Source of the DNA: a virus
Taxonomy: Duplodnaviria; Caudoviricetes
IMG/VR virus record: IMGVR_UViG_3300037419_000894
Span: 1 to 64,000 of that record
Length of the DNA stretch: 64,000 bases
Strand: one strand, 5' to 3'
The notes under the pieces are model-generated. The model saw only the letters and a program-made list of their open reading frames with translations, was not told where the DNA came from and did no database searches. How positions within the stretch are numbered: position 1 is the stretch's first letter; each line of letters opens with the position of its first letter. Of the stretch, positions 2,530 through 20,053 are shown one piece after another. The position numbers and the translations under genes are program-made.

Positions 2530-2556
2530 CAACCACCACATGAAAGGAGAAGCAGC

Positions 2557-2753: not shown

Positions 2754-2779
2754 GCATTCCACAACCAAGGAGAATCAAA

Positions 2780-2977: not shown

Positions 2978-2981
2978 TGCC

Positions 2982-3239: not shown

Positions 3240-3242
3240 CGT

Positions 3243-3292
3243 AAAGTAATCTCCTGCCTTAGCGTGCTAGGGCAGTGGATGCACTTTGCATC
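3243..3292 (+). ncRNA. Junction pseudoknot motif copy E5
   Basis: AAAGT ... GATGC-[ACTTT]-GCATC; compensatory change relative to E1. Confidence 0.75.
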
Positions 3293-3311
3293 TCAACCTA
3301 AAGGAGCTATC

Positions 3312-3572: not shown

Positions 3573-3620
3573 AGTAATCTTACACCTCAGCGTGCTGGGG
3601 TGTTGGATGCACTTTGCATC
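3571..3620 (+). ncRNA. Junction pseudoknot motif copy E6
   Basis: AGAGT ... ACACCTCAG/CTGGGGTGT hairpin ... GATGC-[ACTTT]-GCATC. Confidence 0.75.
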
Positions 3621-3651
3621 GTCCCACCACAACAAATCCAAGAGGCTAAAA

Positions 3652-3855
3652 ATGTTAAAAATCAAAGTCTACTTCTACACCGCAGCATTCGCAGCAGTGC
3701 TCGCGGCAATTTATGGCATCAAGGCTGCGCTGAGCGGTTTGGAACGTGACCCTGTCAACGGCCCACTGTGTACAGCATTTACGATGGTTTCAATTGCTTT
3801 GTACATGATGTGCCTGGAAGCGAAGCAGCAGCTCAAACTCACTAAAGGAGAATAA
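3652..3855 (+). CDS. Small membrane protein
   Basis: GAGG RBS; two hydrophobic helices. Confidence 0.7.
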   Translation: MLKIKVYFYTAAFAAVLAAIYGIKAALSGLERDPVNGPLCTAFTMVSIALYMMCLEAKQQLKLTKGE

Positions 3856-3856
3856 T

Positions 3857-4132
3857 ATGCCTATCGCAGAACGCCAAAAATCCGCAGAAGCTAAGCCCTT
3901 GGACCAAATGACTATCCGGGAGCTTGCACTCACCATCCGCAATGCGTGGCCCAAGCCATACTTCGGCGCCAAGCCTTACATCGAGGCGATGCTGACGCTC
4001 GAGAAACTGAGCGACATGTATTTCTACGACAGCGGCCGCGACATCGTCACGTATTTCCTCGCGAACGCAGGCACATGGCGCGGCGGCATTGCTCAGATGG
4101 TCAAGGCTGAGCTCAAGCGCCGCCTGAAGTAG
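3857..4132 (+). CDS. Hypothetical phage protein
   Basis: AAGGAG RBS; 91 aa. Confidence 0.85.
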   Translation: MPIAERQKSAEAKPLDQMTIRELALTIRNAWPKPYFGAKPYIEAMLTLEKLSDMYFYDSGRDIVTYFLANAGTWRGGIAQMVKAELKRRLK

Positions 4133-4133
4133 T

Positions 4134-4192
4134 AAGAGTAATCTACAAGCTCGTGACCACACATCGCGGGCTTGTGGGTGCGCTCTTGCACC
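4134..4192 (+). ncRNA. Junction pseudoknot motif copy E7
   Basis: AAGAGT ... hairpin 4145-4175 with ACCACAC in its loop ... GGTGC-[GCTCTT]-GCACC. Confidence 0.75.
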
Positions 4193-4213
4193 TCCACCCA
4201 CAAAGGAGAAACT

Positions 4214-4432
4214 ATGACTACTCATATTATCAAATGCGACGAACACGGCGACGCCACCCTCTACGGTGAACTTCTTATTTGCCGTTACCTTGCAGGCGAC
4301 TGCGACACGATCGACTTCAAGAACCCAAATATGACGAACTTGAAGCATGCCCTGTACGATCTCCGCGAATGCAGCGATAAGATCAAGTACAGCGACAATT
4401 TCTCGATCGACGGCGTCGTCTTTACTGTTTAA
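4214..4432 (+). CDS. Hypothetical protein
   Basis: AAGGAG RBS before ATG 4214. Confidence 0.8.
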   Translation: MTTHIIKCDEHGDATLYGELLICRYLAGDCDTIDFKNPNMTNLKHALYDLRECSDKIKYSDNFSIDGVVFTV

Positions 4433-4449
4433 CAACAAGGAGAATTAAA

Positions 4450-4878
4450 ATGAGCCACACTATCGATTACAGCGCCCTTGAAGGTGACGCAAAACGCGAA
4501 GCAGCCATGAAAGATATCAAATTCTGGCTGGGCGAGGACACATTCAAGCGGATGCAAGCAAGTGTCGTGGCGGAGTACAAAGACAAGCCTTTCAGTCTTG
4601 AAACCTTCCGCTTCAGCGCATCGTTTGCAGGTGTCCAAGGTTACCCGGTCCAGGCCTGGTTCGAGACCGTTGTGGCGGAGGCTAAGATGGTTGCTATCAA
4701 GGGCGTGCGCGCCGACGGCATTGAAGTCTGGTACACCGGCAAAGCGGATGCAGAGTGGATCTCTGTATTTTCGGACGACGCCTTCATGGGCTACAACCTC
4801 GAGGGCGCCAAACGCAAGGCTGAGATCTTGAATCACTCGAGCACCATGACCGGCATCACTTTCGCGCCAGACGTGTAA
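4450..4878 (+). CDS. Hypothetical protein
   Basis: AAGGAG RBS; 142 aa. Confidence 0.85.
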   Translation: MSHTIDYSALEGDAKREAAMKDIKFWLGEDTFKRMQASVVAEYKDKPFSLETFRFSASFAGVQGYPVQAWFETVVAEAKMVAIKGVRADGIEVWYTGKADAEWISVFSDDAFMGYNLEGAKRKAEILNHSSTMTGITFAPDV

Positions 4879-4925
4879 AGCTGCAATGAAAGCCTCCACG
4901 CGGGGCTTTCGTGGCAATTTTGCCA
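4877..4925 (+). ncRNA. Junction motif copy E8 (imperfect pseudoknot pairing)
   Basis: AAAGCT ... GAAAGCC/GGCTTTC hairpin ... TGGC-[AATTTT]-GCCA; one mismatch. Confidence 0.5.
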
Positions 4926-4946
4926 GTCCCACCTAAGGAGAATCAA

Positions 4947-5144
4947 ATGGCTGTACATATCTGGATGGATGAAACATCTGGAGAAATCTCGATCAGTGCT
5001 TTTGAACCTGAAAGCACATTCTACGAAGCAAACCACATCATCTTGGTTGAAGATCGTGGCGGGAAAGTGAACAAACACCCATCGGTGCTCAACATCCTGC
5101 AGAATGTGTTGGAGCAAGCAGGCGTTCAAGTTATTCGTGATTAA
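4947..5144 (+). CDS. Hypothetical protein
   Basis: AAGGAG RBS before ATG 4947. Confidence 0.8.
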   Translation: MAVHIWMDETSGEISISAFEPESTFYEANHIILVEDRGGKVNKHPSVLNILQNVLEQAGVQVIRD

Positions 5145-5164
5145 ATTTTAACAAGGAGAATCAA

Positions 5165-5626
5165 ATGAAACAGAAACAAATCTTAGCCGTTATCGGTGGC
5201 GTCACCTTCACGAGCCTGCCTATTGGCGAGAAAGAGGCGCAGCATGTCCTAGACAGCTTCAGCCGCGCAGCCCCAAATTGCGATCCGCAAATCGTCGATG
5301 CCCAACCCGTGACCACACCCATCCGGAATGAGGATGTCGCGGCTGCTGTAAAAGCCGGACTGAAGAGTTATGATCGAGAGCTCTTAGCTCGAGGCAACAA
5401 TCTCGACGTTCTGCCAGCGAATCTGCTCAAGAACCTTGTGGATTACTACGTTGAAATGGGCGCGGCTCGCGACGAAACGGCTGCTCGTGCACTGCTGCGC
5501 ACCGCCTCCTTCGACGGTCTGCTCCGGGCATTCTGTGCATGGAACGGATACGGCGTGAATCCTGGTTCCTTGGCTAGTGCTGTGCGCCAGCTGTACAAAG
5601 CTGTTCATGGCGATAGCGATTCTTAA
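5165..5626 (+). CDS. Hypothetical protein
   Basis: AAGGAG RBS; 153 aa. Confidence 0.85.
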   Translation: MKQKQILAVIGGVTFTSLPIGEKEAQHVLDSFSRAAPNCDPQIVDAQPVTTPIRNEDVAAAVKAGLKSYDRELLARGNNLDVLPANLLKNLVDYYVEMGAARDETAARALLRTASFDGLLRAFCAWNGYGVNPGSLASAVRQLYKAVHGDSDS

Positions 5627-5706
5627 TAAAAAGCGTCCGCCCGGTTGTTAAATCGCAAGCCCACCGGGCATTTTTGCTGTACAATGGAGTTTGTGTTGTG
5701 CAAAAG

Positions 5707-5766
5707 CCGCGCTGATGAGACCTAAAAGGTCGAAACTTCCAGCCCGAAGGGGTTGGAGGTCCGCGG
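5707..5766 (+). ncRNA. Hammerhead ribozyme, type I (HHR-1)
   Basis: Stem I CCGCG/CGCGG; CTGATGA 5712-5718; stem II GACC-TAAAA-GGTC; GAAA 5732-5735; 10-bp stem III; GTC cleavage triplet 5759-5761. Confidence 0.92.
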
Positions 5767-5804
5767 ATGTCCGCGAATAACCACACCACAGGAGTATTAC
5801 CATC

Positions 5805-6509
5805 ATGGCAACTGACAAACAAGCAGCTCGCGCAGGTCGTAACGTCAAAGCAGCCGACGCAGTCGTGGCAAACGGCACGAAAGCTGCCAAAGCCCCGCGC
5901 AAAGTCCCGGCTGGCACACTGTCCGAGAAGCCGAAAATGGCTGAACCGACCAATCCTCCGGTCGAAATCACGGAAGAGCAGCGCAAGGCTGACCGTCGCG
6001 CTGACGACATCACCAAGAACGACGCAATGGCCAGGTTCGTGGCACAGCAGACTGGCGAAACCAAGCCGAAAGTCGACATAGCTGCGTTCGAGGCTGAAAT
6101 GGCTGCGCTGAAAGCTAAGTACGGCGTCACCGCTGAAGTGAAGGTCAAGGCCTCGAAAGGTGATAAAATCGTCCAGAACGGCGTGACCAGGCCTGCAGCC
6201 AGCACCCTATGCGGTAAAATCTGGGCCGCAGCCGACCGCATCAGCCAGCGCATTCACAGCGTGGCGCCGATCGCACTGCTGCGCGAGGATCCGGAGCTGA
6301 AGGGTGTGAATGACCACACTATCAAGACGCAGTACGCGAAATGGCGTGCGTTCAACAACGTCTCGGGCCGGCTCCCGCGCATCCAGGCTGTGCACCAGCC
6401 GGCGGAAGGCATCTACAACGAAGCCCTCCCGCATATCGTGCAACCGCAGGCAACTGAGCCTGCCAAAAGCGAGGAGCAGCCGGCTAGCGACGCACCAGCA
6501 GCTGAATAA
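5805..6509 (+). CDS. Ala/Lys-rich protein with putative DNA-binding C-terminal domain (paralog family member 2)
   Basis: CAGGAG RBS; GVTRP...CGKIWAAAD...GVNDHTIKTQYAKWR. Confidence 0.85.
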   Translation: MATDKQAARAGRNVKAADAVVANGTKAAKAPRKVPAGTLSEKPKMAEPTNPPVEITEEQRKADRRADDITKNDAMARFVAQQTGETKPKVDIAAFEAEMAALKAKYGVTAEVKVKASKGDKIVQNGVTRPAASTLCGKIWAAADRISQRIHSVAPIALLREDPELKGVNDHTIKTQYAKWRAFNNVSGRLPRIQAVHQPAEGIYNEALPHIVQPQATEPAKSEEQPASDAPAAE

Positions 6510-6531
6510 GCCTTCGGACTTGGTCCACACA

Positions 6532-6553
6532 GGGAGCTTCGGCTCCCTTTTTT
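6532..6553 (+). terminator. Rho-independent terminator
   Basis: GGGAGC-TTCG-GCTCCC followed by T6. Confidence 0.9.
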
Positions 6554-6583
6554 ATTGACTGTAACCACACTCAGGAGTATTAC

Positions 6584-6844
6584 ATGTTCGAATTACAAAG
6601 CATTGAAATCGTCAATAGTGCTCTGGCTGAAATTGAACCTGCAATGTTGAAAGCGTGCCTTGCCAAGGTTGCCGACCAAATCGTGAACAGCGGCCTGCGC
6701 AATCGTGCAAGGATTGTGATCTCCAAGCGCACTTCAACAGGTTGGCTGGAATACCCGATCACAATCTTCAATGAGGACCATGTGGCAATATACATTGTAG
6801 CGATACAGCGCACGGTCGATAGCGAAGTTGAGTTTCATTCGTGA
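6584..6844 (+). CDS. Hypothetical protein
   Basis: CAGGAG RBS; 86 aa. Confidence 0.8.
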   Translation: MFELQSIEIVNSALAEIEPAMLKACLAKVADQIVNSGLRNRARIVISKRTSTGWLEYPITIFNEDHVAIYIVAIQRTVDSEVEFHS

Positions 6845-7290
6845 CCACACTCCTGCGGTGCGAATAGGTGCTGTTTGACCTGCTCGCGCTGAGGTTCTGG
6901 TGTTGTGAATTGCATCAATTCATACCCTGTGACAGAGGGTATGTGTGGGAGCAATTAAATACGGGTGGCTACCCTAGTCACCATGCGTTTCACCCTACTC
7001 CGACTAGGGGGGTGCTCATTTGCCCGATTTGTAGGCATCCGACTACCCTCCCCTTACTTTGCCTAAATACCGAGCAAAAATGGTGTTCCAATAGACAGAA
7101 TATGGTATAAATAAGTAATTAAGATTTTTGGTGCTCTGTATAGGGAAAAGTAGTAGTAAATAGTAGTAATGCAATAAAAACGTTAGTCTTTGAAATAAAT
7201 ACAGGAGTAGGTAGGGTTTACTTTTACCCCTCGCACCCCCAACCCGCGCAAAACTCCTAATGCAATGGTCCTACCCCAACATTTTAAATG

Positions 7291-7299
7291 TGCTACAAT
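7291..7299 (+). promoter_or_regulatory. Extended -10 promoter element
   Basis: TGcTACAAT about 30 nt upstream of ORF 7332. Confidence 0.5.
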
Positions 7300-7331
7300 A
7301 GGGGCTCCCATACTTTATTTAAAGGTGCCAA

Positions 7332-8150
7332 ATGCTACAGCTCACTACCCACGTCTCCCAAGAGACTGCCTTTCGTTTCGATTATTTTCCATACACCTTC
7401 GGACACTATTGCCCGATTCGTGTTTGGGTGGACTCCAAGACCGGTAAGGGCCAGCGCCTAGCGTACCGCACGTTCAACCCAATTGACCGTGAGTGGACCA
7501 AACCCAAGTTGTCCGCATACTTCGATCTGGTATTCCTGTTCGAAAAACATGGGTTCGTCACCGAGCAGCTAATCAGCTTCCAAAGCATGCCTCTCGACGA
7601 CCTTCTGCACATTGTCTCGCACTACTACGTAACGTCAGAGCAAAAGCAGCGCATCCAAGCCTACCTAGCAACCGTGGCCAATGTAGGCCGCACAAACTGG
7701 GCAAGTCCTACAGAGCATGCGCAACATCCTGGAGGTTACGAGGTACAAGAGTTATCCATCACAAACAGCGACCCGCTGCTCACAACCAGCTCGCACCTCA
7801 TTGTTCCTGAACCACCTGCGATTGAGCAAAAGCAACTCGGGCGCCCGCCTAGCAAAAACTTGTGGAACGCGCCAAAGGTAGTGGAAGCCACACCAGACAC
7901 AAGTGTGGTCAACGCTCCCAAGCCTTGGTTGCGCGGTCCTCAGCAGCCTGCAATGTCTCAAGCAGCTACAACGTCCCTGCAAAAGCTCATTGATCAAATA
8001 CACGATCATACAGCACTGTTACTTAAGCGCGGAGACGAGCGTGACGAGTATTACATCAATCGAGGTCGTCAAAACCCGGACAACTTCAAGAGCGAAACAC
8101 AAGTGCGCAATTACGCCGCAGTTCTAGGCATCACACTCATCGAAGATTAA
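7332..8150 (+). CDS. Hypothetical protein with Pro-rich linker
   Basis: 272-aa ORF, AAGGT RBS. Confidence 0.8.
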   Translation: MLQLTTHVSQETAFRFDYFPYTFGHYCPIRVWVDSKTGKGQRLAYRTFNPIDREWTKPKLSAYFDLVFLFEKHGFVTEQLISFQSMPLDDLLHIVSHYYVTSEQKQRIQAYLATVANVGRTNWASPTEHAQHPGGYEVQELSITNSDPLLTTSSHLIVPEPPAIEQKQLGRPPSKNLWNAPKVVEATPDTSVVNAPKPWLRGPQQPAMSQAATTSLQKLIDQIHDHTALLLKRGDERDEYYINRGRQNPDNFKSETQVRNYAAVLGITLIED

Positions 8151-8174
8151 CCACACAACCCGAAAGGAACCATC

Positions 8175-8369
8175 ATGTACAACATCTTAGTCACAACCTT
8201 CGTACTCCGCGAGCAACAAATCGTCACCGTGGCTTCTGCCGTAATAAGCGCACCAACAACCGCCGAGGCCGACGCAATCCTTAAGAACGCCAAGAAAACT
8301 TGGTTTGCCAATGACAACCACATCATCCGCATGTTCGAACCGCTGTACAATCTCGGCAGCCCGATCTAG
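8175..8369 (+). CDS. Hypothetical protein
   Basis: AAAGGA RBS. Confidence 0.75.
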   Translation: MYNILVTTFVLREQQIVTVASAVISAPTTAEADAILKNAKKTWFANDNHIIRMFEPLYNLGSPI

Positions 8370-8377
8370 GACACCAA

Positions 8378-8623
8378 ATGACCACAATCGCAAAACGCCT
8401 CTCTAAGCACCTCGGCGGCAAGTGGGCCTACGACAATCTGTCTACTTGGTGGTGCGACGACAATAAGCGCAGCGTGTCCCGTTGCAGCGCGGGCGTCGAT
8501 GAGTTCGATAACGATCTCGGCCCTGCCCAATATTGGTTGTACGGCGACGGCAACCCCCGTCGTGCGGAGCAGTACATGTTCAAGCGACCATCACTCTTAA
8601 CACTCTTAAAGGACTCCCAATGA
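8378..8623 (+). CDS. Hypothetical protein
   Basis: AGGA RBS; 81 aa. Confidence 0.75.
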   Translation: MTTIAKRLSKHLGGKWAYDNLSTWWCDDNKRSVSRCSAGVDEFDNDLGPAQYWLYGDGNPRRAEQYMFKRPSLLTLLKDSQ

Positions 8624-8766
8624 ACCCGACCACAGTCTTCATCCACAGCAGTGGTATCCTTGCTGCCTACCTAGCTATCAGTTACACTACTCGCGGCGAG
8701 TACCTCCTAGCTTCGATTGAGGCAACCATTATGCTGTTCTTCGCCTCCCGCGAACCTAAGCCCTAA
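8620..8766 (+). CDS. Small membrane protein
   Basis: ATGA overlap with upstream stop; hydrophobic. Confidence 0.6.
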   Translation: MNPTTVFIHSSGILAAYLAISYTTRGEYLLASIEATIMLFFASREPKP

Positions 8767-8833
8767 AGCCCTAGCCAATGCCGACTAACCGCACGCCGGC
8801 ATTCCCGAGTGCTTTATCACCAAAGGAGCTACA

Positions 8834-9052
8834 ATGAAATTCAAACCATCGGAGCAAGTTGCCCACCCCCACATCCAACAATTGCGCAGTTCTGCAAGTT
8901 GGCTCGGTTCGTCCTTGCAGCACATTTATCTGAATTACGGTCTGTCCTACAAGCACCTCATGGAACGGCGCAACCAGCTGCTCAAAGGTCCAGGTCTCAC
9001 TGACAATGATCGCGAGCTGCTTAAAACGCTGGACGACATCCTTCACAGATAA
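8834..9052 (+). CDS. Hypothetical protein
   Basis: AAGGAG RBS. Confidence 0.8.
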   Translation: MKFKPSEQVAHPHIQQLRSSASWLGSSLQHIYLNYGLSYKHLMERRNQLLKGPGLTDNDRELLKTLDDILHR

Positions 9053-9070
9053 GCACAGATGGACCGCAAC

Positions 9071-9129
9071 AAGGTTCCACTGTTAGACGCTTACCACACA
9101 TGGCGGCGTCTAACGGGGCAATCTTGCCC
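9071..9129 (+). ncRNA. Junction pseudoknot motif copy E10
   Basis: AAGGTT ... GTTAGACGC/GCGTCTAAC hairpin ... GGGC-[AATCTT]-GCCC; 6-bp covaried pairing. Confidence 0.7.
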
Positions 9130-9144
9130 GACACAGGAGGTTAT

Positions 9145-10320
9145 ATGAAACGTTTCATTAGCACTCTCGCTGCGGCGATGGTTGCTGCTGGCGTCATGGC
9201 AGCTCCAAAGTCTGTAACACCCACTAAGACCGGAGCATTAACAGTCGCGTCTGGTCAAACGTGGTTTAGCGCAAACGGCATCACTTACGTTCCGGTGGGT
9301 CCGAAGTCGTATCCCGAAGGTGATTGGTATGTCCTCTGTGCTTACGATACTGTGGGCACCCTCAATTGCAAACGGCTCGTTCCAGTCTGGAGCATGAAAG
9401 GCATTTTGGTTCAGTCGCAACTTGGGGCGGATGGTACTCCAATCACAACCTACGCGCAAACTGAGATGTACAACGGCCAGGATGTCAGCGCGATGTCTCC
9501 AGTGGAAAAGGTGAATCTAGCGAAGTCTGTTCTAGACAGCCAGAGCCTAGCGATCGCCGTATTCGAAGCAAGGTTGGCTGACGCCATTACACAGTTCGAC
9601 AATGGTTGCGCCGCGGACGTCGGTTGCGAGACTTCGGCAAGTGCGATGCGCAGTGGTCGGGCGCCAAGCAGCTCGAGTGCCAAGGCAAGCAGCAGCGGTG
9701 CGAAGGCAGATTCGGAGCCTGAGCCTAGGAGCGCAAAACCTGCCGGTGGTAAACGCATGCAAACGGTGGAGGTTCCGGGGCAGATTCCCGACCCGGAATA
9801 CCCGCCCAACATGGGTGATCCTGTGCCTGATCCTGTGGCGGACCCAACTGCGCCGTCTGGTGATGGTGGCAACGACGCTGGCGGGCTGCCTGATCAGCCA
9901 GATGGTAGCGGAAGCTGGCGGAAATACAAGATGCCGAGCGAAACTTGCGTCGCGACTCCGCCGCTCCCCGGTATGCCTGTCGTCGGTGGTGGTTGCGTCG
10001 TCAGGGTTCCTGCACCGCACCCTGTTATTCCGCCGGACCCGGAGACCCAGCCGTTGCCTCCCCCGCCTACAGATTGGTGCAGGATCTTCCCGGGAGCCTG
10101 CGCCGGAGCTGATGGACTGCCTCCCAACGTCCCGAACCCGATGCGCGATATGTGCAATTCGCGGTTCTTGGTGAAGGCTATGCGTTGCTACCAGAAGCGC
10201 CTGGATGATCCAGCGCACGTGACCGACAGCGAAACGCGGGTCTGTGTTGCTGGAGCTCAGGCTCAGCTGGCGATCTGCGCCGCAGGAGCTCCGCCGGCGC
10301 TTGCTGCACCTAAGCAGTAA
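9145..10320 (+). CDS. Secreted Pro-rich, Cys-rich protein of unknown function
   Basis: AGGAGG RBS; signal peptide MKRFISTLAAAMVAAGVMA; 12 Cys; Pro-rich second half. Confidence 0.75.
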   Translation: MKRFISTLAAAMVAAGVMAAPKSVTPTKTGALTVASGQTWFSANGITYVPVGPKSYPEGDWYVLCAYDTVGTLNCKRLVPVWSMKGILVQSQLGADGTPITTYAQTEMYNGQDVSAMSPVEKVNLAKSVLDSQSLAIAVFEARLADAITQFDNGCAADVGCETSASAMRSGRAPSSSSAKASSSGAKADSEPEPRSAKPAGGKRMQTVEVPGQIPDPEYPPNMGDPVPDPVADPTAPSGDGGNDAGGLPDQPDGSGSWRKYKMPSETCVATPPLPGMPVVGGGCVVRVPAPHPVIPPDPETQPLPPPPTDWCRIFPGACAGADGLPPNVPNPMRDMCNSRFLVKAMRCYQKRLDDPAHVTDSETRVCVAGAQAQLAICAAGAPPALAAPKQ

Positions 10321-10379
10321 TCTGTAACCACGCCCGGTCGGAGATCATCCCGGCCGGGATTTTATCCACAGGAGGTACA

Positions 10380-10571
10380 ATGGACCCAAAGAAGCAACAC
10401 CGGTTACTCCGCAGTCAGGGAACCGACTGGTGGTACAGGGAACTGGCTGAACAAGCAGCTAACGCACGCATGGAGCGCGAAATTGCTGAATCGTTCAACC
10501 GTCCCCATCTGTACTTGATCGCGCACAACCCGCACATCCCATCCAAACCTAAATACAGGAGGCCAATGTGA
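10380..10571 (+). CDS. Hypothetical protein
   Basis: AGGAGG RBS. Confidence 0.75.
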   Translation: MDPKKQHRLLRSQGTDWWYRELAEQAANARMEREIAESFNRPHLYLIAHNPHIPSKPKYRRPM

Positions 10572-10945
10572 ACAAAATAACCATCTCTTGCGTACCCAAA
10601 TTCATCATGAACTTGTCGCTGGCAGAATGCCAGTTAATCCGAGCGCTAGCAAGTTGGCACTATGACGTAAAATGCAGAAATGCTGGCCACGTAGGCGGGT
10701 TCCTTTACGGTTGGATGAATCAGCTAACGCCTGCTGACGAGAACGACACCGAAGAAAGGTTCGTTAGCGCTTCGTTCGGTGAGCTCGACTTAGTCCTTAA
10801 GATCTTAGAGGTTATGCACTCTTGGCGAGATGATGCTGAGCGCAAAGCCCTTCGCAAAATAGACCTTCAAATAAGGACTGCGCTCAAAGAATCTAACCGC
10901 ATCATGCCAACTCTCAGCTTTGAAGTCGATCTGTCCCACATCTAA
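10568..10945 (+). CDS. Hypothetical protein
   Basis: Overlaps upstream stop; GGAGG RBS. Confidence 0.75.
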   Translation: MNKITISCVPKFIMNLSLAECQLIRALASWHYDVKCRNAGHVGGFLYGWMNQLTPADENDTEERFVSASFGELDLVLKILEVMHSWRDDAERKALRKIDLQIRTALKESNRIMPTLSFEVDLSHI

Positions 10946-10997
10946 AGCGAAAGCTAATGCTAGTTCCATGAGCTAGCATTGTCGAGCGCTTTGCTCG
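10944..10997 (+). ncRNA. Junction pseudoknot motif copy E11
   Basis: AAAGC ... AATGCTAG/CTAGCATT hairpin ... CGAGC-[GCTTT]-GCTCG. Confidence 0.75.
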
Positions 10998-11012
10998 TAA
11001 CAGGAGAAACAA

Positions 11013-11273
11013 ATGGAATTATCCAGAGCAGGTATGGTGTGGTCACAACAGGAGCTTGAACAACTCCGCACCAATTTCGGTTCAGGTATGGACCTTGAAG
11101 AGCTAATGCGGACGCAGGGTCGGTCTGCATACGCTATCATTGCGAAGCTTCAGGAGATGGGCTTGATTGTGCTGGTCGGCCGTAGCAGCTACCACAAGGT
11201 TGTTCCGGATGCGTGGATTACCTCCGAAGGTATCCACTTTATCAACAAGCAATCAAAGGGTGGCGCAAAATGA
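11013..11273 (+). CDS. Small Myb/SANT-like helix-turn-helix protein
   Basis: W-S-x2-E-x3-L...GRS-x2-AI-x2-KL pattern; CAGGAG RBS. Confidence 0.55.
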   Translation: MELSRAGMVWSQQELEQLRTNFGSGMDLEELMRTQGRSAYAIIAKLQEMGLIVLVGRSSYHKVVPDAWITSEGIHFINKQSKGGAK

Positions 11274-11590
11274 TCAACGCAAACCAAATACGACTCCAGC
11301 ATGTCACCGAGTTCCAACTTTGGGACGGCGAAATGACCGTGCATGCCTTTCAACATATCGGCGCCCACGGCTTCCCAAGCGCTGCAATCGTCATCACACG
11401 TATGGACGACCCAATCGAAACACGAGTGTGGTCAGGATACGGGCGTTACAAGCCTAGCGAAAAGCCAACTGAAGCTCACATGAGTCAGTGGATTGCAGAT
11501 CAACTTAATCGCTTAGCAACGGGCGCCTATGGCAGCACGTCAGCAATTGTTGAAATTCGTTCGCCTGATGTAAGGATCATCTATGGGTAA
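11270..11590 (+). CDS. Hypothetical protein
   Basis: ATGA overlap with upstream stop. Confidence 0.7.
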   Translation: MINANQIRLQHVTEFQLWDGEMTVHAFQHIGAHGFPSAAIVITRMDDPIETRVWSGYGRYKPSEKPTEAHMSQWIADQLNRLATGAYGSTSAIVEIRSPDVRIIYG

Positions 11591-11978
11591 GCACTACCGC
11601 GACCCGAAAGACAAGCCCACATTGTTGGAGCAACACTACAATGATGTGGACAAGTACCCGTCGCCTTACCACACTCTCAAAGACGTGTGCGAAGCACTGC
11701 TCAACGCTCCGGCCGACAGCGAGGGTGCACAGCGCGTGCTGTACGCTGTGCTAGTGCCTGAAAATCCGGTCCGCGACAAGCAAGCGCATTGCAGGTATTA
11801 TCTCACTTATGCAGGTGCTAAAGCTTGGATCGAAGGACATAACAGCACGCGCGTTACCAAGCAGAACGAAGGCAACAAGCGCAAGGCGAAATTGCTAGTG
11901 TACAGCCCTGATGAGATGCGTACCTACCTCATTCAACTTGCACCACAAAACAACGAGGGGAGCAATGAGTCTAGTTGA
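11583..11978 (+). CDS. Hypothetical protein
   Basis: AAGGA RBS; 131 aa. Confidence 0.75.
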   Translation: MGKHYRDPKDKPTLLEQHYNDVDKYPSPYHTLKDVCEALLNAPADSEGAQRVLYAVLVPENPVRDKQAHCRYYLTYAGAKAWIEGHNSTRVTKQNEGNKRKAKLLVYSPDEMRTYLIQLAPQNNEGSNESS

Positions 11979-12123
11979 CTTCTTATTCGAGAAACGCACC
12001 AAGCTCGAGCTAGCAAAAGAGCTTGCCAAGACGGCACACGAGAACGCAGCTCTGCGCAACCGCGTGTACGAACTTGAGCATGAGCTTTTCTGGCTCAAGG
12101 CAATCACACCACCACAGGAGTAA
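11965..12123 (+). CDS. Small coiled-coil protein
   Basis: GGGGAG RBS; heptad-like ELAKELAKTAHENAALRNRVYELE. Confidence 0.7.
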   Translation: MSLVDFLFEKRTKLELAKELAKTAHENAALRNRVYELEHELFWLKAITPPQE

Positions 12124-12233
12124 TTATGACTAATCCGACCAATCAAAAACAGCTCAAGTAGCGCCACAGCGTAAGCCCTTCAGTGGGCTTACTCGGTTGC
12201 ACTGCTGTCAATAACCACAACAGGGAGCTTACA

Positions 12234-12428
12234 ATGGAACAAGAAGAAATCTGGATTAACGGTGTGCAGTATGAAGCAAAGCGAGCAACGCTCAGCCACG
12301 GTTGCTCAGGTTGCGTAGCCTATCAACTGTTACCTAGCGGCTCGAGGTACATCAATCAGCAGTTGTGTGGTCAACTTCCGAAGTGTGTAGCACCTAATGT
12401 AGTCTTTACTCTCAAACAGGAGAAATAA
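12234..12428 (+). CDS. Small Cys-containing protein
   Basis: GGGAG RBS; CxxC plus two more Cys. Confidence 0.7.
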   Translation: MEQEEIWINGVQYEAKRATLSHGCSGCVAYQLLPSGSRYINQQLCGQLPKCVAPNVVFTLKQEK

Positions 12429-12908
12429 ATGCGTAAAGTTCAAATTCTGGCTCGTGAGCTCGATGCGGGCGACATCCTCGTCACGGACGATGCTCGCGAC
12501 GTTGTTACCCAAGTCATTGATACTGGTGAACCTCTGATCACCGTATGCGCAGCACGGTTAGGCCTGGGGAACTGCTCGGACTATCCTGTCAACTGGCATC
12601 GAGATTCGAAGGTCTTTGTCGAGCGTCCGCTGCCGAACCCAATGGATGGCTTGTATGCTATCGGTACGCCGGTGCTTGTGGACGTCGATGTGGACATGTT
12701 TCGCACTGGTGTAGTGTGCGGCGTAAGGGTGGAAACAAAGGTCGTCGCATCGCTTGTGAGCAACGTTACGCCTGAAAACGCAAGTTCAAATGTGCAATAT
12801 CAAATTATTTGGACCAAAGGGTCTGTAGGAACAAACCACCCTTGGTTCGAGCAACATCTCGTTAAGGCTACAGCATCTGAGTTTCATCAAATCAAAAAGT
12901 TCCTATAA
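12429..12908 (+). CDS. Hypothetical protein
   Basis: CAGGAG RBS; 159 aa. Confidence 0.8.
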   Translation: MRKVQILARELDAGDILVTDDARDVVTQVIDTGEPLITVCAARLGLGNCSDYPVNWHRDSKVFVERPLPNPMDGLYAIGTPVLVDVDVDMFRTGVVCGVRVETKVVASLVSNVTPENASSNVQYQIIWTKGSVGTNHPWFEQHLVKATASEFHQIKKFL

Positions 12909-12975
12909 CAGTGCTACAACGCAAGCTCCTGCCCATGCGGTGGGCTTGCTTGGTAACACTCACAAAGGAGGAAGT

Positions 12976-13263
12976 ATGAAACATACTACTGAAACAGAAG
13001 ATTTTGTCCTCGCAACCGAGGACGGCAAACAGTTCGTGCAGGTCAAGAGGGGTGCTTGGAATGATACACCGTACATCGAACTCACGACGGAGTTTGCGCG
13101 AGCTACTCCAATGAAGTCTGAGTCGGTCTTTCGGACGCACAGCATCACAATCAAAGATTATTGCGGAGCAACGCGCCGCATCCCAATTAAGATCACTCGC
13201 GTAGTCGAAGTGATGACTGAGGAGCTTAATTTTAACCTGCCTCCGGAGGACGGACATGGCTAA
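12976..13263 (+). CDS. Hypothetical protein
   Basis: AAGGAGG RBS. Confidence 0.8.
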   Translation: MKHTTETEDFVLATEDGKQFVQVKRGAWNDTPYIELTTEFARATPMKSESVFRTHSITIKDYCGATRRIPIKITRVVEVMTEELNFNLPPEDGHG

Positions 13264-13627
13264 CCCTGCGCACACTCGACGTGCTACAGCTCAGGAGGCT
13301 GTAGAATTTAATCAGATGCGGTGGCAGTCTAAAAACTGGCAGCGTCTGCATGAGTTGAGTCTGGAATTTGTTCGCACAGGTTCATTCAAGTGTAAAGAAG
13401 ACCAACAAGCTCACTCTGAAGTGACTAAGGCTTGGCATGCTGAACTTATGACTTCGAAGTTCCGCTTCGGGGCACATGGCTTGCAGGTGGTCAAAGAACG
13501 CAATGAGCGAGTTGTGCGCCCCAAGCGCACCGCAGGCAGGGCTTTTTACAGCCATTGTGAACTGTGCACAAGGCCTCTAGTTGGCGCAGAACGAAAGAGT
13601 CCTGCTTGTGCAGATTGCTCACCTTAA
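13256..13627 (+). CDS. Hypothetical protein with C-terminal zinc ribbon
   Basis: CELC...CADC; GGAGG RBS. Confidence 0.75.
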   Translation: MANPAHTRRATAQEAVEFNQMRWQSKNWQRLHELSLEFVRTGSFKCKEDQQAHSEVTKAWHAELMTSKFRFGAHGLQVVKERNERVVRPKRTAGRAFYSHCELCTRPLVGAERKSPACADCSP

Positions 13628-13681
13628 TTAACGGACCCAAATGCAGCATTGGTATCCGTGCGTGCGGGCGTATAACGCGCG

Positions 13682-13690
13682 TGTTATAAT
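13682..13690 (+). promoter_or_regulatory. Consensus extended -10 promoter element
   Basis: TGtTATAAT 50 nt upstream of ATG 13741. Confidence 0.6.
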
Positions 13691-13740
13691 GTTGTTTGCT
13701 GTACCTTTCACCTTGTAGTTCTACAATCAAAGGAACTAAG

Positions 13741-14001
13741 ATGACTAAAGTATCTGAAAAACGGCCCAACGGCCCGTTCGACCTGCGCATCAGCGAGCGG
13801 CAGCGTAAGCTGCTGGTGCGTGCGCTCACCGAAGGTTTGTCGGACGACTTCGTCCTGACACTCATGTCCGAGAACGCGCAGAGTGTGGTCATGGGCAACA
13901 ATCTCCAACAACTCCAAGAGTTGACCAGCATGCTCAGCACCCTTCCCGACAACAATGTAGCGGGCATGCTGCACGCTCTTTTGCATGCGAGCGAACGATG
14001 A
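13741..14001 (+). CDS. Hypothetical protein, probable paralog of 2982-3239
   Basis: AAGGA RBS; ISERQRKLL...MLSTLP...GMLH. Confidence 0.75.
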   Translation: MTKVSEKRPNGPFDLRISERQRKLLVRALTEGLSDDFVLTLMSENAQSVVMGNNLQQLQELTSMLSTLPDNNVAGMLHALLHASER

Positions 14002-14288
14002 CCACACAACAGCGCACAATCAAGACGGTTTACCGTTTTCAAGGCGAAGAGACCAAGGTGACCACAGCCTGCAATCCCAACCGCGCTGTCGCTAAATGCG
14101 TCGAGCACTTGCAAGTGAATGACTACGGCGCAACGGTTGCCGAGGTCTACGATCGCGAAAGCGGGGTTTTGCACGCCATTGTCAAGCGTAGCATTAACGG
14201 TAGCATTAACATTGCCTACCGTTACAACCCTGAAGACTTCAAACCCATGCGTCTGTCTCTCGGCGCACTGCTGGAGGAAAAGAAATGA
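13998..14288 (+). CDS. Hypothetical protein
   Basis: ATGA overlap; 96 aa. Confidence 0.75.
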   Translation: MTTQQRTIKTVYRFQGEETKVTTACNPNRAVAKCVEHLQVNDYGATVAEVYDRESGVLHAIVKRSINGSINIAYRYNPEDFKPMRLSLGALLEEKK

Positions 14289-14548
14289 CCACACCATCAT
14301 TCAGAACGCTCAAGGCGCTACGCATGTGGCACTGGCAGCAGATGAAGACGCACCGTGCAGAGCAAGACCGCTTGGAACGGCTTGTGGATCAATCAACTCG
14401 CGCGCACCACAAGAAAGAGTATCGCGAGGAGGCGCGTCAGCACCGCATGCTAGCAGACCTCCACCTATCTGCTGTGCAAGTGCTGAACGACAGTGTGCCT
14501 GGAACTGCTGAACAAGACTGCGCAGAGGAGGACGCTCAAAAGACTTAA
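14285..14548 (+). CDS. Hypothetical helical protein
   Basis: GGAGG RBS; ATGA overlap. Confidence 0.75.
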   Translation: MTTPSFRTLKALRMWHWQQMKTHRAEQDRLERLVDQSTRAHHKKEYREEARQHRMLADLHLSAVQVLNDSVPGTAEQDCAEEDAQKT

Positions 14549-14596
14549 AGTTCCAGCGTATGCCCTTCACCGGGCATACTCGGGCGCTTTGACCCG
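14547..14596 (+). ncRNA. Junction pseudoknot motif copy E12
   Basis: AAAGT ... GTATGCCC/GGGCATAC hairpin ... CGGGC-[GCTTT]-GACCCG (one bulge). Confidence 0.7.
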
Positions 14597-14622
14597 TAAC
14601 CTCCACAAACAAAGGAGCTTGT

Positions 14623-16077
14623 ATGTCAAGAACTTGGTCACCCTATCAACAAACCATCTTTGCTTTCGTTGCTGAAGCGAATGCTGGTAACGCAATCGTG
14701 AACGCAGTTGCTGGTTCTGGTAAATCTACAACTATTGTCGAAGCCTGTAACCACATCCCGTCCGGGCAAACGCACCTCATGCTCGCGTTCAACAAGTCGA
14801 TCGCAGAGGAGCTGAAGGAACGCGGCGTCAACGCTCGCACCTTCCACTCGCTGACGTACACGCCTGTGACGCGTGCTAAAGGCACGTCGTCGGTGGATTC
14901 GAACAAGCTGCGCACCATCTGCAAGATGAAGATGCCCAGCAAGGACGAATTCTTGTACGCCAACTTCTGCTGCCGGCTGGTTGGCATCGTGCGCCAAATG
15001 GGTATCGGGTTTCTATGCCCGGATGAGCGCTGGGTGTACGAAGACGTCATCGATCACCACATGCTCGAACTGGACAGCGAGAATGCTGAACTGGACGTGG
15101 CAATCGACTACGCCCAAAAGCTGCTCACATGGTCCAACGCTAGCCCGGTGGTCGATTTTGACGATCTGCTGTACCTCGCAGTGAAAGACAATATTGCGCT
15201 GCCGAAGTACGACTTCATCTTCGTTGACGAAGCCCAGGACACCAACGCTATCCAGCGTGAAATCCTGCGCAAGATCATGAAACCAACCTCGCGCATCATT
15301 GCAGTGGGCGACCCGGCACAAGCAATCTACGGCTTCCGCGGCGCCGACAGCAACTCGCTCAAGCGCATTGAAGACCAGTTCGGTGCAACCAACCTGCCGC
15401 TGACCGTTTCGTATCGCTGCGGCACCGAGATCGTCAAGTACGCTCAGCAGTGGGTGCAGCACATTGAACCCGCGCCGGGTGCTCCGGCAGGTGTGGTCAA
15501 CGATCTCAACAAGGACTGGAACACTGGCATGTTCCAGTCGGACGACCTTATCGTCTGCCGTACAACGAAGCCACTGGTCGCGCTGGCGTACAGGCTGCTG
15601 CGCGATCGCATCCCAGCGAAAATTATGGGGCGCGACATTGGTGCGGGTCTGATCTCACTCATCAAGCGTCAGAAAGCTACCAGCATTGATCAGCTGATCG
15701 AACGCGTTAGCAACTGGGCAGCGCGTGAAGCGGATGCAGCATTGCTGCAAGGTAAGGAGTCCAAAGCGCAGGCGCAACAGGACAAGGCTGACGCTATTAT
15801 CGTGCTGTGCGAAACCCTGCCGGAGCACGAGCGCACGGTCGAACATCTGGTGGAGGTCATCAACAACCTGTTCACCGACCGCGCGAGCAACTGCCTCACC
15901 CTTGCCACTATCCACAAGGCTAAGGGCATGGAAGCTGACCGCGTGTGGTGGCTCAACCGCCGGCAGTGCCCTGCAAAATGGGCCAAGAAAGACTGGATGC
16001 AAGAGCAGGAACGAAACCTTTGCTATGTCGCCACGACGCGAGCAAAATCTGAACTCAACCTTATTGAGGAGCGTTAA
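14623..16077 (+). CDS. UvrD/Rep-like SF1 helicase
   Basis: AVAGSGKST, FVDEAQD, VGDPAQAIYGFRG, TIHKAKGME, YVATTRAK. Confidence 0.95.
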   Translation: MSRTWSPYQQTIFAFVAEANAGNAIVNAVAGSGKSTTIVEACNHIPSGQTHLMLAFNKSIAEELKERGVNARTFHSLTYTPVTRAKGTSSVDSNKLRTICKMKMPSKDEFLYANFCCRLVGIVRQMGIGFLCPDERWVYEDVIDHHMLELDSENAELDVAIDYAQKLLTWSNASPVVDFDDLLYLAVKDNIALPKYDFIFVDEAQDTNAIQREILRKIMKPTSRIIAVGDPAQAIYGFRGADSNSLKRIEDQFGATNLPLTVSYRCGTEIVKYAQQWVQHIEPAPGAPAGVVNDLNKDWNTGMFQSDDLIVCRTTKPLVALAYRLLRDRIPAKIMGRDIGAGLISLIKRQKATSIDQLIERVSNWAAREADAALLQGKESKAQAQQDKADAIIVLCETLPEHERTVEHLVEVINNLFTDRASNCLTLATIHKAKGMEADRVWWLNRRQCPAKWAKKDWMQEQERNLCYVATTRAKSELNLIEER

Positions 16078-16078
16078 A

Positions 16079-16282
16079 ATGCAATCATTAAAGAGCCCGA
16101 CTCACGAACAACTGATTCAAGCTCACACCGACATTGTAAGCGTTGACGAGAATGTCGAAATTGTCGTGGACAAAATCGGTCACGTTGTGTGGGTGAACAT
16201 CGCGGGCGCGTGCGTCCTACGTGTTCACGGCGCAAGGAATGTGGTCATCAAGGACGAACGCAACAAAAAACCAGCCAACTGA
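16079..16282 (+). CDS. Small hypothetical protein
   Basis: GAGGAG RBS; its TGA stop lies inside the HHR-2 core. Confidence 0.75.
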   Translation: MQSLKSPTHEQLIQAHTDIVSVDENVEIVVDKIGHVVWVNIAGACVLRVHGARNVVIKDERNKKPAN

Positions 16283-16335
16283 AGAGCTCTCGGTCTAATA
16301 TGAGCGAAACGCCCAGAACATCGGGCGTCTTGGTT
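16273..16335 (+). ncRNA. Hammerhead ribozyme, type I (HHR-2)
   Basis: Stem I AGCCAA/TTGGTT; CTGAAGA 16279-16285; stem II GCTC/GAGC; GAAA 16306-16309; stem III CGCCC/GGGCG; GTC 16327-16329. Confidence 0.9.
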
Positions 16336-16359
16336 AATCCACAAACAAAGGAGAACACA

Positions 16360-16746
16360 ATGGCTGCAATCAACAATCGAGATTTGAACTTTATTCTGAC
16401 CACTGTCATTGAAGGTGGTAGCGCCTACTGGGCGAATGATAGTGATGTGTGTCAAACTGTTGAAATCAAACGTGAAGCAGACTCTGATGAAGATTTGCGC
16501 TCATTGAAGTTGGTTAGTGAGATCAAAATAACCACAGACGTCGATGGCAAAGGTTGGAAAACTCAGACCATTACTGCAACTGAAATGCGCAAGGCGCTGA
16601 AAGCAATGAAGGAAGATCAGAAATTGCCTGAGCATCTGCGCAAAATGGCTCGTAAGCTTCTGAATAATGGCGACGAAGATTACGATGCTGGCGACGCTGA
16701 CGTGATCTTTCAATACGCTCTGTTTGGTGAAATCGTGTTTGGTTAA
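16360..16746 (+). CDS. Hypothetical phage protein
   Basis: AAGGAG RBS; EGGSAYWA...DAGDADVIFQYALFGEIVFG. Confidence 0.85.
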   Translation: MAAINNRDLNFILTTVIEGGSAYWANDSDVCQTVEIKREADSDEDLRSLKLVSEIKITTDVDGKGWKTQTITATEMRKALKAMKEDQKLPEHLRKMARKLLNNGDEDYDAGDADVIFQYALFGEIVFG

Positions 16747-16903
16747 GCTAGCTGCGCACCGCAACAGCGCTAAGCACGCACGGCAAGCACCCGCCATTGC
16801 GCTCCTGCAGGGTTGCGCATACCCGCACTAGGGTGCACACTGTTAAAGCGCTTGTAGCGCGCATTTAAACGTGCTACAAGCGTGCCTCAAATTTGGAGAT
16901 TAG

Positions 16904-19084: not shown

Positions 19085-20053
19085 ATGACCGACAAGACCA
19101 CCCCCGCAGGCATCGACCTGGACCGCGATACCGTCCGCGCCGTGTTCATGAAGCACGGATTCACCATCAAGGAAGGGCAAACCGATCTCAAACCGTATGT
19201 GTATGCGGCAGCGGCAGAACTGATTGCGATCGCCCGTCAGCCGCGCGTGAGCGAACAGGCGGACGGGCGGGCGCTGCCGGCGTTGCCTGAGCCAATCCAC
19301 ACGTATGAGGCTCACATGGGGTTGCGCGTACCAGCCTTTTCCACCGAGCAGATGCATGCTTATGCCCGCGCCGCCCTCAACCTGCACGCTGCGCCCGAAG
19401 CACCAGCCACCCAGCAGGCAGGATCGGCTGTCGAGGGAACATGGGAACCAATGGGCAAGTTCGCTGAACGGTTAGTACCTGCGGCCACCACGGCAAGCGC
19501 CCTGCCCCTCATCACCGATGCCGACCTGCCAGCGACACTCGAGCCTGGCTTCTACCTTGTGGGCGTCACGGCAAGCGCGAGCGGGGAGCCCTTCATGTGG
19601 TTCGATCCGGAACAGGTCGAGCGGGCAAAGCTGACGGACTACGCTGACCACATCGGCATCTTCGGGTCGAGCGTCAAGTTTGGTAGCTTTACGGCACCAC
19701 TCTACCGCACCCCAGTACCCAGCCGTGAGGCTGCACCGCTGGACAATGGAGAAGTCGCCCGCCTACGCCGTGTGGTGCGTGCCCTCAACATGGAGTCGCA
19801 AGTTCCTGACGATGATGCGACGTTGCGGGGCTGCCTGTTCTCCGTACTCGGGATGATCGCGTACAAGCTGGAGTGCGCAGCCCGCGCCGAGCAGGGCGCA
19901 GGACAGGTAGCACAAGAAATCTCCAACGGTTTGGTCCAATTCTTTGATGAATGGGAACAAATTATCCCGCAAGATGCCCGTGCAGCACTCCAAACGATTG
20001 TGAGTAAGTGTAGGGAATCTCTCACTCCAACACCAACCAAACAGGGAGAATGA
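19085..20053 (+). CDS. Mosaic Ala-rich hypothetical protein
   Basis: AAGGA RBS; 322 aa. Confidence 0.75.
   Translation: MTDKTTPAGIDLDRDTVRAVFMKHGFTIKEGQTDLKPYVYAAAAELIAIARQPRVSEQADGRALPALPEPIHTYEAHMGLRVPAFSTEQMHAYARAALNLHAAPEAPATQQAGSAVEGTWEPMGKFAERLVPAATTASALPLITDADLPATLEPGFYLVGVTASASGEPFMWFDPEQVERAKLTDYADHIGIFGSSVKFGSFTAPLYRTPVPSREAAPLDNGEVARLRRVVRALNMESQVPDDDATLRGCLFSVLGMIAYKLECAARAEQGAGQVAQEISNGLVQFFDEWEQIIPQDARAALQTIVSKCRESLTPTPTKQGE

What the first reader, a model, noticed from the sequence alone, without database searches (positions are those of the whole stretch)
16273..16335. Hammerhead HHR-2 has the upstream stop codon inside its catalytic core
Seen: the TGA ending ORF 16079-16282 is the UGA of CUGAAGA; cleavage after 16329 would fall 30 nt before the next start codon. 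Inference: a terminating ribosome would cover the core, so cleavage could be coupled to translation of the upstream gene. Loop II (GGU) could pair with upstream ACC as the tertiary contact.
Basis: partly seen in the sequence, partly recalled or inferred. Interest (0 to 1): 0.75.

Follow-up and report, generated by a model that had tools for sequence, protein, structure and literature searches.

The report
Phage hammerhead ribozyme sharing a stop codon
A self-cutting hammerhead RNA sits between two early genes of a soil phage and shares three letters of its catalytic core with the stop codon of the gene before it; this layout turns out to be common among phage hammerheads and looks like tight genome packing, not a proven control switch.

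Summary
Window 16273-16335 (+) is a complete type I hammerhead: core CUGAAGA, GAAA, GUC with the cut after C16329, and stems of 6, 4 and 6 bp. The TGA at 16280-16282 that ends the 67-codon gene 16079-16282 is U4-G5-A6 of the core. The next ATG (16360) lies 30 nt after the cut.

The element is not a chance match:
- My descriptor finds 2 hits in the 74-kb phage genome against 0.017 expected.
- A covariance model built from 28 other phage hammerheads scores it 52 bits.
- The one orthologous locus (L001) keeps the ribozyme and leader at 91% identity, while the gene before it is 62% identical. Its stem II carries three compensatory pair changes.

Rfam's own model stays below threshold (19.1 bits against 34).

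The stop/core overlap is conserved in L001 but is not special. In 78 independent viral and 43 bacterial-genome hammerheads of the same class, 16-28% use the core UGA as the upstream stop, and about 70% have the stop within 6 nt of stem I or inside the ribozyme. This scan has reported the same layout several times on other DNA.

Translation-coupled cleavage is geometrically plausible but untested. The proposed GGU:ACC tertiary contact is at chance level and is absent from the ortholog. Verdict: a typical new member of a known kind.

The parts
14623..16077 (+). UvrD-like DNA helicase gene, first gene of the upstream mRNA segment
   Evidence: phrog_1967 DNA helicase, E 8.7e-118. Its stop TAA 16075-77 lies 1 nt before the ATG of the small ORF.
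16079..16282 (+). 67-codon gene (orphan) whose last two codons form the stem I 5' strand and whose TGA stop is U4G5A6 of the ribozyme core
   Evidence: ORF listed (same frame). GAGGAG SD 10 nt upstream. The ortholog in L001 1998-2195 is 55% identical, with codon-position differences 20/17/33 and 16 synonymous codon changes. No Pfam or PHROG match.
16273..16278 (+). Hammerhead stem I, 5' strand (AGCCAA)
   Evidence: Pairs with 16330-16335.
16279..16285 (+). Catalytic core C3-A9 (CUGAAGA), containing the stop codon 16280-16282
16286..16305 (+). Stem II (GCUC/GAGC, G10.1-C11.1 kept) with a 12-nt loop II at 16290-16301
   Evidence: Three of the four pairs change on both sides in L001 (GACU/AGUC), where loop II is only 3-5 nt.
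16306..16308 (+). Core G12 A13 A14
16309..16328 (+). Stem III (ACGCCC/GGGCGU, includes A15.1-U16.1) with an 8-nt loop
   Evidence: The same stem III sequence is found in >118 viral contigs and 106 stretches of bacterial genomes.
16329..16330 (+). Predicted self-cleavage site: after C17 (16329), before U1.1 (16330)
   Evidence: Position rule of the hammerhead family applied to the alignments. Not tested experimentally.
16330..16335 (+). Stem I, 3' strand (UUGGUU); becomes the 5'-OH end of the downstream fragment
16336..16359 (+). Leader of the downstream gene, with SD GGAG at 16350-16353
   Evidence: The block from CGAAAC through the leader to the ATG is 53/58 identical to L001, although the gene behind it differs. 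A similar RBS motif sits before the helicase start at 14604-14620.
16360..16746 (+). Downstream gene (128 aa, phrog_2355, unknown function)
   Evidence: Replaced by an unrelated 100-aa gene in L001.

Best explanation
HHR-2 is a genuine type I hammerhead ribozyme of a widespread phage and prophage class. It is transcribed as part of the rightward early polycistronic mRNA of an uncultured soil siphophage related to Pseudomonas, Variovorax and Sphingomonas phages.

Once its 63 nt are made it folds and cuts itself between C16329 and U16330. The upstream fragment (helicase plus the 67-codon gene) keeps its stop codon and a 47-nt structured tail that ends in the stem III hairpin with a 2',3'-cyclic phosphate. 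The downstream fragment starts with a 5'-OH, 30 nt before its start codon, with the SD exposed. The two halves of the message can then have different stabilities and translation rates.

The shared UGA is best read as maximal packing. The gene runs through the stem I 5' strand and ends on the first in-frame stop, which is the invariant core UGA. A terminating ribosome must transiently melt stem I, the core and half of stem II. Translation can therefore delay folding, or help release the cut products, but this is a side effect common to most phage hammerheads and not a dedicated switch.

Shown here: the motif, its conservation, its covariation and its class-typical layout. Inferred: the cleavage itself, the fates of the fragments and any effect of the ribosome.
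For: - Complete core and three helices; expected 0.017 hits per shuffled genome against 2 found.
- Model R1, built from 28 other phage hammerheads, gives 52.2 bits, E about 5e-14.
- The ortholog L001 keeps the CGAAAC-to-ATG block at 53/58 identity against 62% in the preceding ORF. Stem II is maintained by three double changes.
- The hammerhead fold lies within 1.2 kcal/mol of the MFE here and is the MFE in L001.
- It is on the sense strand between co-directional genes, with no promoter or terminator signal nearby.
- Class survey of 78 viral clusters: the upstream stop is the core UGA in 13-19, abuts or overlaps stem I in 16, lies 1-6 nt away in 22, and only 2 genes run deeper. The median distance from cut to next start is 32 nt (window: 30).
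- Replicated in 43 bacterial-genome clusters: 7-12 use the core UGA.
- Reviews state that processing of polycistronic transcripts is the suggested but unproven role of bacterial and phage hammerheads (PMC6765202; PMC6155905; PMC3088659).
Against: - No experimental or RNA-end evidence of cleavage; the tools for sequencing runs and encoding contigs were unavailable.
- Rfam's Hammerhead_1 model scores it below its gathering threshold (19.1 against 34 bits).
- No convincing stem I/loop II tertiary contact could be found, and such contacts are normally needed for fast cleavage at cellular Mg2+.
- Only one ortholog exists in the collections searched, so locus-specific covariation rests on two sequences.
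- The R1 score is inflated because the seed sequences were picked by a pattern containing this element's stem III sequence.
- Genes in the UGA frame are over-represented among stops within 20 nt (32 of 61 against one third expected). Pure random placement does not predict this.
Confidence: 0.65

Rival explanations
1. Ribosome-gated ribozyme. The stop codon is placed in or against the ribozyme so that ribosomes translating the upstream gene control when stem I and the core can fold. Segmentation of the mRNA, and so the fate of the downstream message, would then depend on translation of the upstream cistron.
For: With UGA in the A site the ribosome channel covers 16273 to about 16292, which is stem I 5', the core and stem II 5' (inference from established footprint data). 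The overlap is conserved in L001 across a 6-nt in-frame indel just upstream. Class-wide, about 70% of stops lie within 6 nt of stem I or inside the ribozyme, and stops in the UGA frame are over-represented (32 of 61).
Against: Short intergenic spacers in phages predict the same adjacency. The cut-to-start distance is equally minimal (median 32 nt). About three quarters of class members do not use the core UGA. Out-of-frame genes cannot extend into the ribozyme without coding through stems II and III, which explains the frame bias. No sequence feature distinguishes the overlapping cases. Nothing was measured.
Confidence: 0.15
2. Weakly active or inactive hammerhead-like relic. The core is intact, but without a tertiary contact it behaves like a minimal hammerhead and hardly cleaves at cellular Mg2+. 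The conserved block would then be kept for another reason, such as the leader/RBS or a 3' protective hairpin.
For: No loop II/flank complementarity above chance. Loop II differs completely between the two orthologs (12 nt against 3-5 nt). The Rfam score is below threshold. The hammerhead fold is not the MFE in the window.
Against: All 13 invariant core positions and the G10.1-C11.1 and A15.1-U16.1 pairs are intact in both orthologs. Stem II is kept by three compensatory changes, which argues for selection on the fold. Many class members with 6-bp stem I and short loop II also lack an obvious pseudoknot, yet are widely conserved.
Confidence: 0.1
3. Module boundary. The ribozyme plus leader mainly serves as a conserved junction at which phages exchange gene cassettes by recombination, and RNA cleavage is secondary.
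For: The gene after HHR-2 is non-homologous in the window and L001. Both flanks are conserved non-coding blocks: HHR plus leader, and an ~85-nt element at 16755-16840.
Against: One comparison only. Conserved regulatory RNA at gene boundaries would produce the same picture passively. It does not explain the intact catalytic core or the stem II covariation.
Confidence: 0.1

Closest known systems
Type I hammerhead ribozymes of phages and prophages (Perreault et al. 2011, PMC3088659; Rfam RF00163, clan CL00010)
   Same: Identical catalytic core, three-helix junction with an open stem I, GUC cleavage triplet, and a position between co-directional genes of a phage polycistronic unit. There is more than one hammerhead in the genome (the second at 5707-5766).
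   Different: Scores below Rfam's gathering threshold. Carries a 12-nt loop II with no recognisable pseudoknot to the 3' tail. The paper's text does not mention stop-codon overlap (0 occurrences of 'stop codon' or 'overlap').
Phage hammerhead sub-class with stem III ACGCCC/GGGCGU found here in IMG/VR and GTDB genomes (L009-L126, L134 onwards)
   Same: Same stem III sequence, stem I of 4-7 bp, stop codon at or in the ribozyme, and a ~30-nt leader to the next start.
   Different: About 40% of that class has a loop II to 3'-tail pseudoknot of >=4 nt, and about a third has a product-refolding 5' hairpin. HHR-2 and its ortholog have neither above chance.
RNase III processing sites of the phage T7 early mRNA (from established knowledge)
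   Same: They work alike: a long early transcript is cut between cistrons, leaving a hairpin at the 3' end of the upstream segment.
   Different: A host protein enzyme does the cutting there, against RNA self-cleavage here, and the end chemistry differs (5'-P/3'-OH against 5'-OH/2',3'-cP). This is not a family relationship.

Membership tests
Hammerhead ribozyme, type I (RF00163 / CL00010) | Core C3 U4 G5 A6 N7 G8 A9 | tested here: met
   CUGAAGA at 16279-16285
Hammerhead ribozyme, type I (RF00163 / CL00010) | G12 A13 A14 followed by the A15.1-U16.1 pair, and the G10.1-C11.1 pair | tested here: met
   GAA at 16306-08; A16309-U16328; G16286-C16305
Hammerhead ribozyme, type I (RF00163 / CL00010) | Cleavage-site nucleotide H17 (not G) after U16.1 | tested here: met
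   C16329, in the triplet GUC
Hammerhead ribozyme, type I (RF00163 / CL00010) | Three helices at the junction, stems II and III capped by loops, stem I open | tested here: met
   6, 4 and 6 bp; 0 of 300 shuffled genomes gave such a hit
Hammerhead ribozyme, type I (RF00163 / CL00010) | Score at or above Rfam's gathering threshold | tested here: not met
   19.1 bits against 34. The ortholog L001 scores 27.1 bits, also below. The Rfam model penalises the long loops.
Hammerhead ribozyme, type I (RF00163 / CL00010) | Helices supported by compensatory changes | tested here: met
   Stem II changes on both sides in 3 of 4 pairs against L001. In the class, 121 of 126 viral pattern matches have stem I >=4 bp although the pattern did not ask for it. 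The covariation count on A2 is by construction and not independent.
Hammerhead ribozyme, type I (RF00163 / CL00010) | Tertiary contact between the stem I region and loop II | tested here: inconclusive
   Only 2-3 nt of complementarity, which is chance level (95% of shuffles), and none in L001
Hammerhead ribozyme, type I (RF00163 / CL00010) | Self-cleavage giving 2',3'-cyclic phosphate and 5'-OH ends | not testable with these tools
Phage/prophage intergenic hammerheads (Perreault 2011 type) | Sense-strand position between co-directional phage genes, matching a model built from other phage hammerheads | tested here: met
   R1 gives 52.2 bits, E about 5e-14 (the seeds share stem III by selection). 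Gene context.

The most novel reading that the evidence does not exclude
Phage hammerheads as a class are docked onto the upstream stop codon, and about one in five share its UGA. Termination by the ribosome would then gate ribozyme folding or drive release of the cut products, making segmentation of phage polycistronic mRNAs depend on translation of the preceding cistron. HHR-2, with its simple two-gene context, would be a clean test case.
Probability: 0.15. Interest if true: 0.65.

Novelty: new member of a known kind. Interest (0 to 1): 0.3.

Why it matters
The biological role of bacterial and phage hammerheads is still described as open in the reviews read here (PMC6765202, PMC6155905). This copy adds a well-supported member that Rfam's thresholds miss. 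It also adds to consistent evidence that phage hammerheads sit flush against, or share, the upstream stop codon. That regularity suggests a cheap, decisive experiment on whether translation termination and self-cleavage interact. If they do not, the layout simply shows how far phage genomes compress coding and RNA-catalytic information into the same letters.

Tried and rejected
- Rfam at gathering thresholds gave no match in the window. A whole-window E-value scan found only HHR-1. HHR-2 appears only when a 151-nt stretch is searched.
- The loop II GGU: 5' ACC contact is rejected as chance.
- A loop II to 3'-tail pseudoknot and a product-refolding 5' hairpin are both enriched in the class, but not above chance in HHR-2 or L001.
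- Searches for more orthologs found only L001's contig. These were: the small ORF and the downstream protein in viral contigs, a lineage-specific DNA pattern in viral and metagenome contigs, a protein alignment in metagenome contigs, and a protein search of 5.8 billion sequences (self hit only).
- Helicase relatives L002-L008 and the cultured phages MiCath, NP1 and VPv62 have no hammerhead after the helicase. MMDA13 gave only a 12-bit match elsewhere in its genome.
- blastn of the element against GenBank phages gave only SD-like noise.
- PHROG search of 10 ORFs that end on a core UGA: only 1 has a family, and the rest are orphans supported by length and SD only.
- I considered a -1 frameshift on the A6 run before stem I and rejected it: the heptamer is not canonical and it is absent in L001.
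- I considered pairing of the stem II 5' strand with the SD and rejected it, because it is not conserved in L001.

Full report
**What is there.** The window is the first 64 kb of a single 74,241-bp phage contig. Genes from about 900 to 43,500 run on the + strand. At 16273-16335 (+) the sequence reads as follows:
- stem I 5' strand AGCCAA;
- core CUGAAGA;
- stem II GCUC/GAGC around a 12-nt loop;
- GAA;
- stem III ACGCCC/GGGCGU around an 8-nt loop;
- C17;
- stem I 3' strand UUGGUU.

Every invariant hammerhead position is present, including G10.1-C11.1 and A15.1-U16.1. The family's position rule puts the cut between C16329 and U16330. The TGA at 16280-16282 is both U4-G5-A6 of the core and the stop of the ORF 16079-16282. 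The next ATG is at 16360, with GGAG at 16350-16353, so 30 nt separate cut and start.

**Is it more than chance?** A simple type I descriptor (core, GAAA, UH, stems >=4/3/3) finds two hits in the whole genome, both on the + strand: 5707-5766 and 16273-16335.
- 300 dinucleotide-preserving shuffles gave 0.017 hits per genome, and none with stems >=6/4/6.
- Rfam at gathering thresholds reports nothing.
- On a 151-nt stretch, RF00163 aligns end to end at exactly 16273-16335, but with 19.1 bits against a threshold of 34.
- A covariance model (R1) built from 28 phage hammerheads from other contigs scores HHR-2 at 52.2 bits (E about 5e-14), the ortholog at 58.6 bits and HHR-1 at 40.3 bits. This score is flattered, because the seeds were collected with a pattern that includes this element's stem III sequence.
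- The hammerhead fold costs -18.0 kcal/mol against an MFE of -19.2. In the ortholog it is the MFE.

**Relatives.** The flanking helicase (phrog_1967) finds eight viral contigs. Only L001 (75% identical helicase) has the small ORF and a hammerhead behind it.
- The small ORFs are 55% identical in protein, with third-position-biased differences (20/17/33) and 16 synonymous codon changes. The gene is therefore real.
- Its nucleotide identity is 62%, while the block from CGAAAC through stem III, the cut site, stem I 3' and the leader to the ATG is 53/58 identical.
- Stem II is GCUC/GAGC in the window and GACU(U)/(G)AGUC in L001, so three pairs changed on both sides. Loop II shrinks from 12 to 3-5 nt.
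- The L001 gene also ends on the core UGA (...ACC AAC UGA CGA), across a 6-nt in-frame indel just upstream.
- The gene behind the ribozyme is unrelated in the two phages.
- No further ortholog was found in viral, metagenome or protein collections. The cultured relatives MiCath, NP1 and VPv62 have no hammerhead.

**The class.** The pattern core...GAAACGCCC...GGGCGUC hits more than 118 viral contigs (the scan was truncated) and 106 stretches of bacterial genomes from many phyla. Of 126 viral matches, 121 have a stem I of >=4 bp, although the pattern did not require one.

After collapsing near-duplicates (83 viral clusters, 78 of them with an upstream open frame of >=60 codons), the upstream stop is placed as follows:

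| Position of upstream stop | Viral clusters (of 78) |
|---|---|
| The core UGA | 13 by the longest-ORF rule, 19 if any UGA-frame ORF >=60 codons is accepted |
| Abuts or overlaps stem I | 16 |
| 1-6 nt before stem I | 22 |
| Deeper in the ribozyme | 2 |

- The distance from cut to next start has a median of 32 nt and peaks at 28-30.
- The independent bacterial-genome set (47 clusters, 43 usable) gives 7-12 core-UGA cases, 10 abutting and 12 within 6 nt.
- Several of the core-UGA ORFs have clear SD sequences, and one matches a PHROG over its full length. Most are orphans.
- Among viral stops within 20 nt of the core, 32 of 61 are in the UGA frame. That exceeds one third. It is explained if out-of-frame genes cannot extend into the ribozyme without coding through stems II and III.

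HHR-2's layout is therefore the norm of its class. This scan's earlier notes on other genomes report the same (about 30% core-UGA stops, about 70% flush stops). My counts were made before reading them and agree.

**Tertiary contact.** In the class, loop II is complementary (>=4 nt WC) to the 12 nt after stem I in 33 of 83 cases against 13.7 expected. Complementarity to the 5' flank is at chance (17 against 14.7). In HHR-2 the proposed GGU:ACC match is the best available, but 95% of shuffled loops do as well, and L001 has nothing comparable. A 5'-terminal hairpin in the downstream product is also enriched in the class (30 of 83 against 11.5) but not in HHR-2 or L001. How this lineage stabilises the active fold is unknown, and this is the main argument against high activity.

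**How it most likely works.** No promoter-like or terminator-like site lies near it on the + strand, so the element is inside a polycistronic transcript. The following steps are inferred:
1. The ribozyme folds once UUGGUU has been transcribed and cuts after C16329.
2. The upstream RNA keeps an intact ORF, its stop codon and a 47-nt tail ending in the stem III hairpin with a cyclic phosphate. This end should be poor for 3' exonucleases.
3. The downstream RNA begins with a 5'-OH, 20 nt before the SD. The same RBS motif (CACAAACAAAGGAG) also precedes the helicase gene.
4. With UGA in the A site, the P-site codon is 16277-79. Established footprint and helicase positions (about +11 to +16) put 16273 to about 16292 inside the ribosome. 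A terminating ribosome therefore melts stem I, the core and the 5' half of stem II.
5. Termination can thus postpone folding of an uncut ribozyme, or help the two products part after cutting. It cannot be affected by the cut itself.

Whether any of this is used for control cannot be decided from sequence. Because nearly all class members place the stop within ribosome reach of stem I, any such coupling would be a property of the class, not of the UGA overlap.

**Comparison and novelty.** Type I hammerheads between phage and prophage genes have been known since 2011 (PMC3088659). Their function is still called open (PMC6765202, PMC6155905). The text of PMC3088659 mentions neither stop codons nor overlap. 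A 2026 preprint notes that CUGAUGA contains two UGAs, but in an origin-of-code argument and not as gene ends. I found no paper in the library describing the stop-sharing layout, but my search was limited. HHR-2 is a new member of a known kind. The stop overlap is a recurrent, probably passive feature, and the translation-coupling idea remains an untested hypothesis.

**Limits.**
- The class sample is restricted to one stem III sequence.
- Gene calls are heuristic (longest open frame of >=60 codons).
- Clusters were made by shared 8-mers.
- Locus-specific covariation rests on two sequences.
- No RNA data could be obtained.

Noticed in passing
window 16360-16850; L001 2266-2645: The gene right after HHR-2 (128 aa, phrog_2355) is replaced in the relative L001 by an unrelated 100-aa gene. 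Both borders are conserved non-coding blocks: HHR-2 plus leader on the left, and an ~85-nt GC-rich structured element (16755-16840, ~90% identical to L001 2550-2635) on the right. It looks like a gene-cassette swap bounded by conserved RNA elements.
   Followed up: partly
window 16810-16826 and 19319-19335: The core of that conserved intergenic element (GGGTTGCGCATACCCGC) has a second copy with 2 mismatches at 19319. It may belong to the repeated junction RNA family that other notes describe for 1874-14596.
   Followed up: no
window 5683-5784: The second hammerhead (HHR-1, 5707-5766) is the only Rfam near-hit of the whole window: RAGATH-1-hammerhead 35.3 bits and HH9 19.9 bits, both below threshold. 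It scores 40.3 bits with my phage model. Unlike HHR-2, it lies about 80 nt after the previous stop.
   Followed up: partly
L013, L009, L049 and many other loci: In about a third of the phage hammerheads sampled, the downstream cleavage product begins with a perfect hairpin made of the stem I 3' strand and a nearby copy of the stem I 5' strand (for example gcggg-agcca-cccgc). This is enriched over shuffles (30 of 83 against 11.5).
   Followed up: partly
L009-L126: Many class members carry an extra U between A9 and G10.1 (CUGAUGA-U-GGCC...). They also have a 7-8-nt loop II whose UGGC or UGGU pairs with GCCA or ACCA 1-2 nt after stem I.
   Followed up: partly
window 14604-14620 and 16340-16356: The same ribosome-binding leader, CACAAACAAAGGAG, precedes both the helicase gene and the gene after HHR-2.
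   Followed up: no
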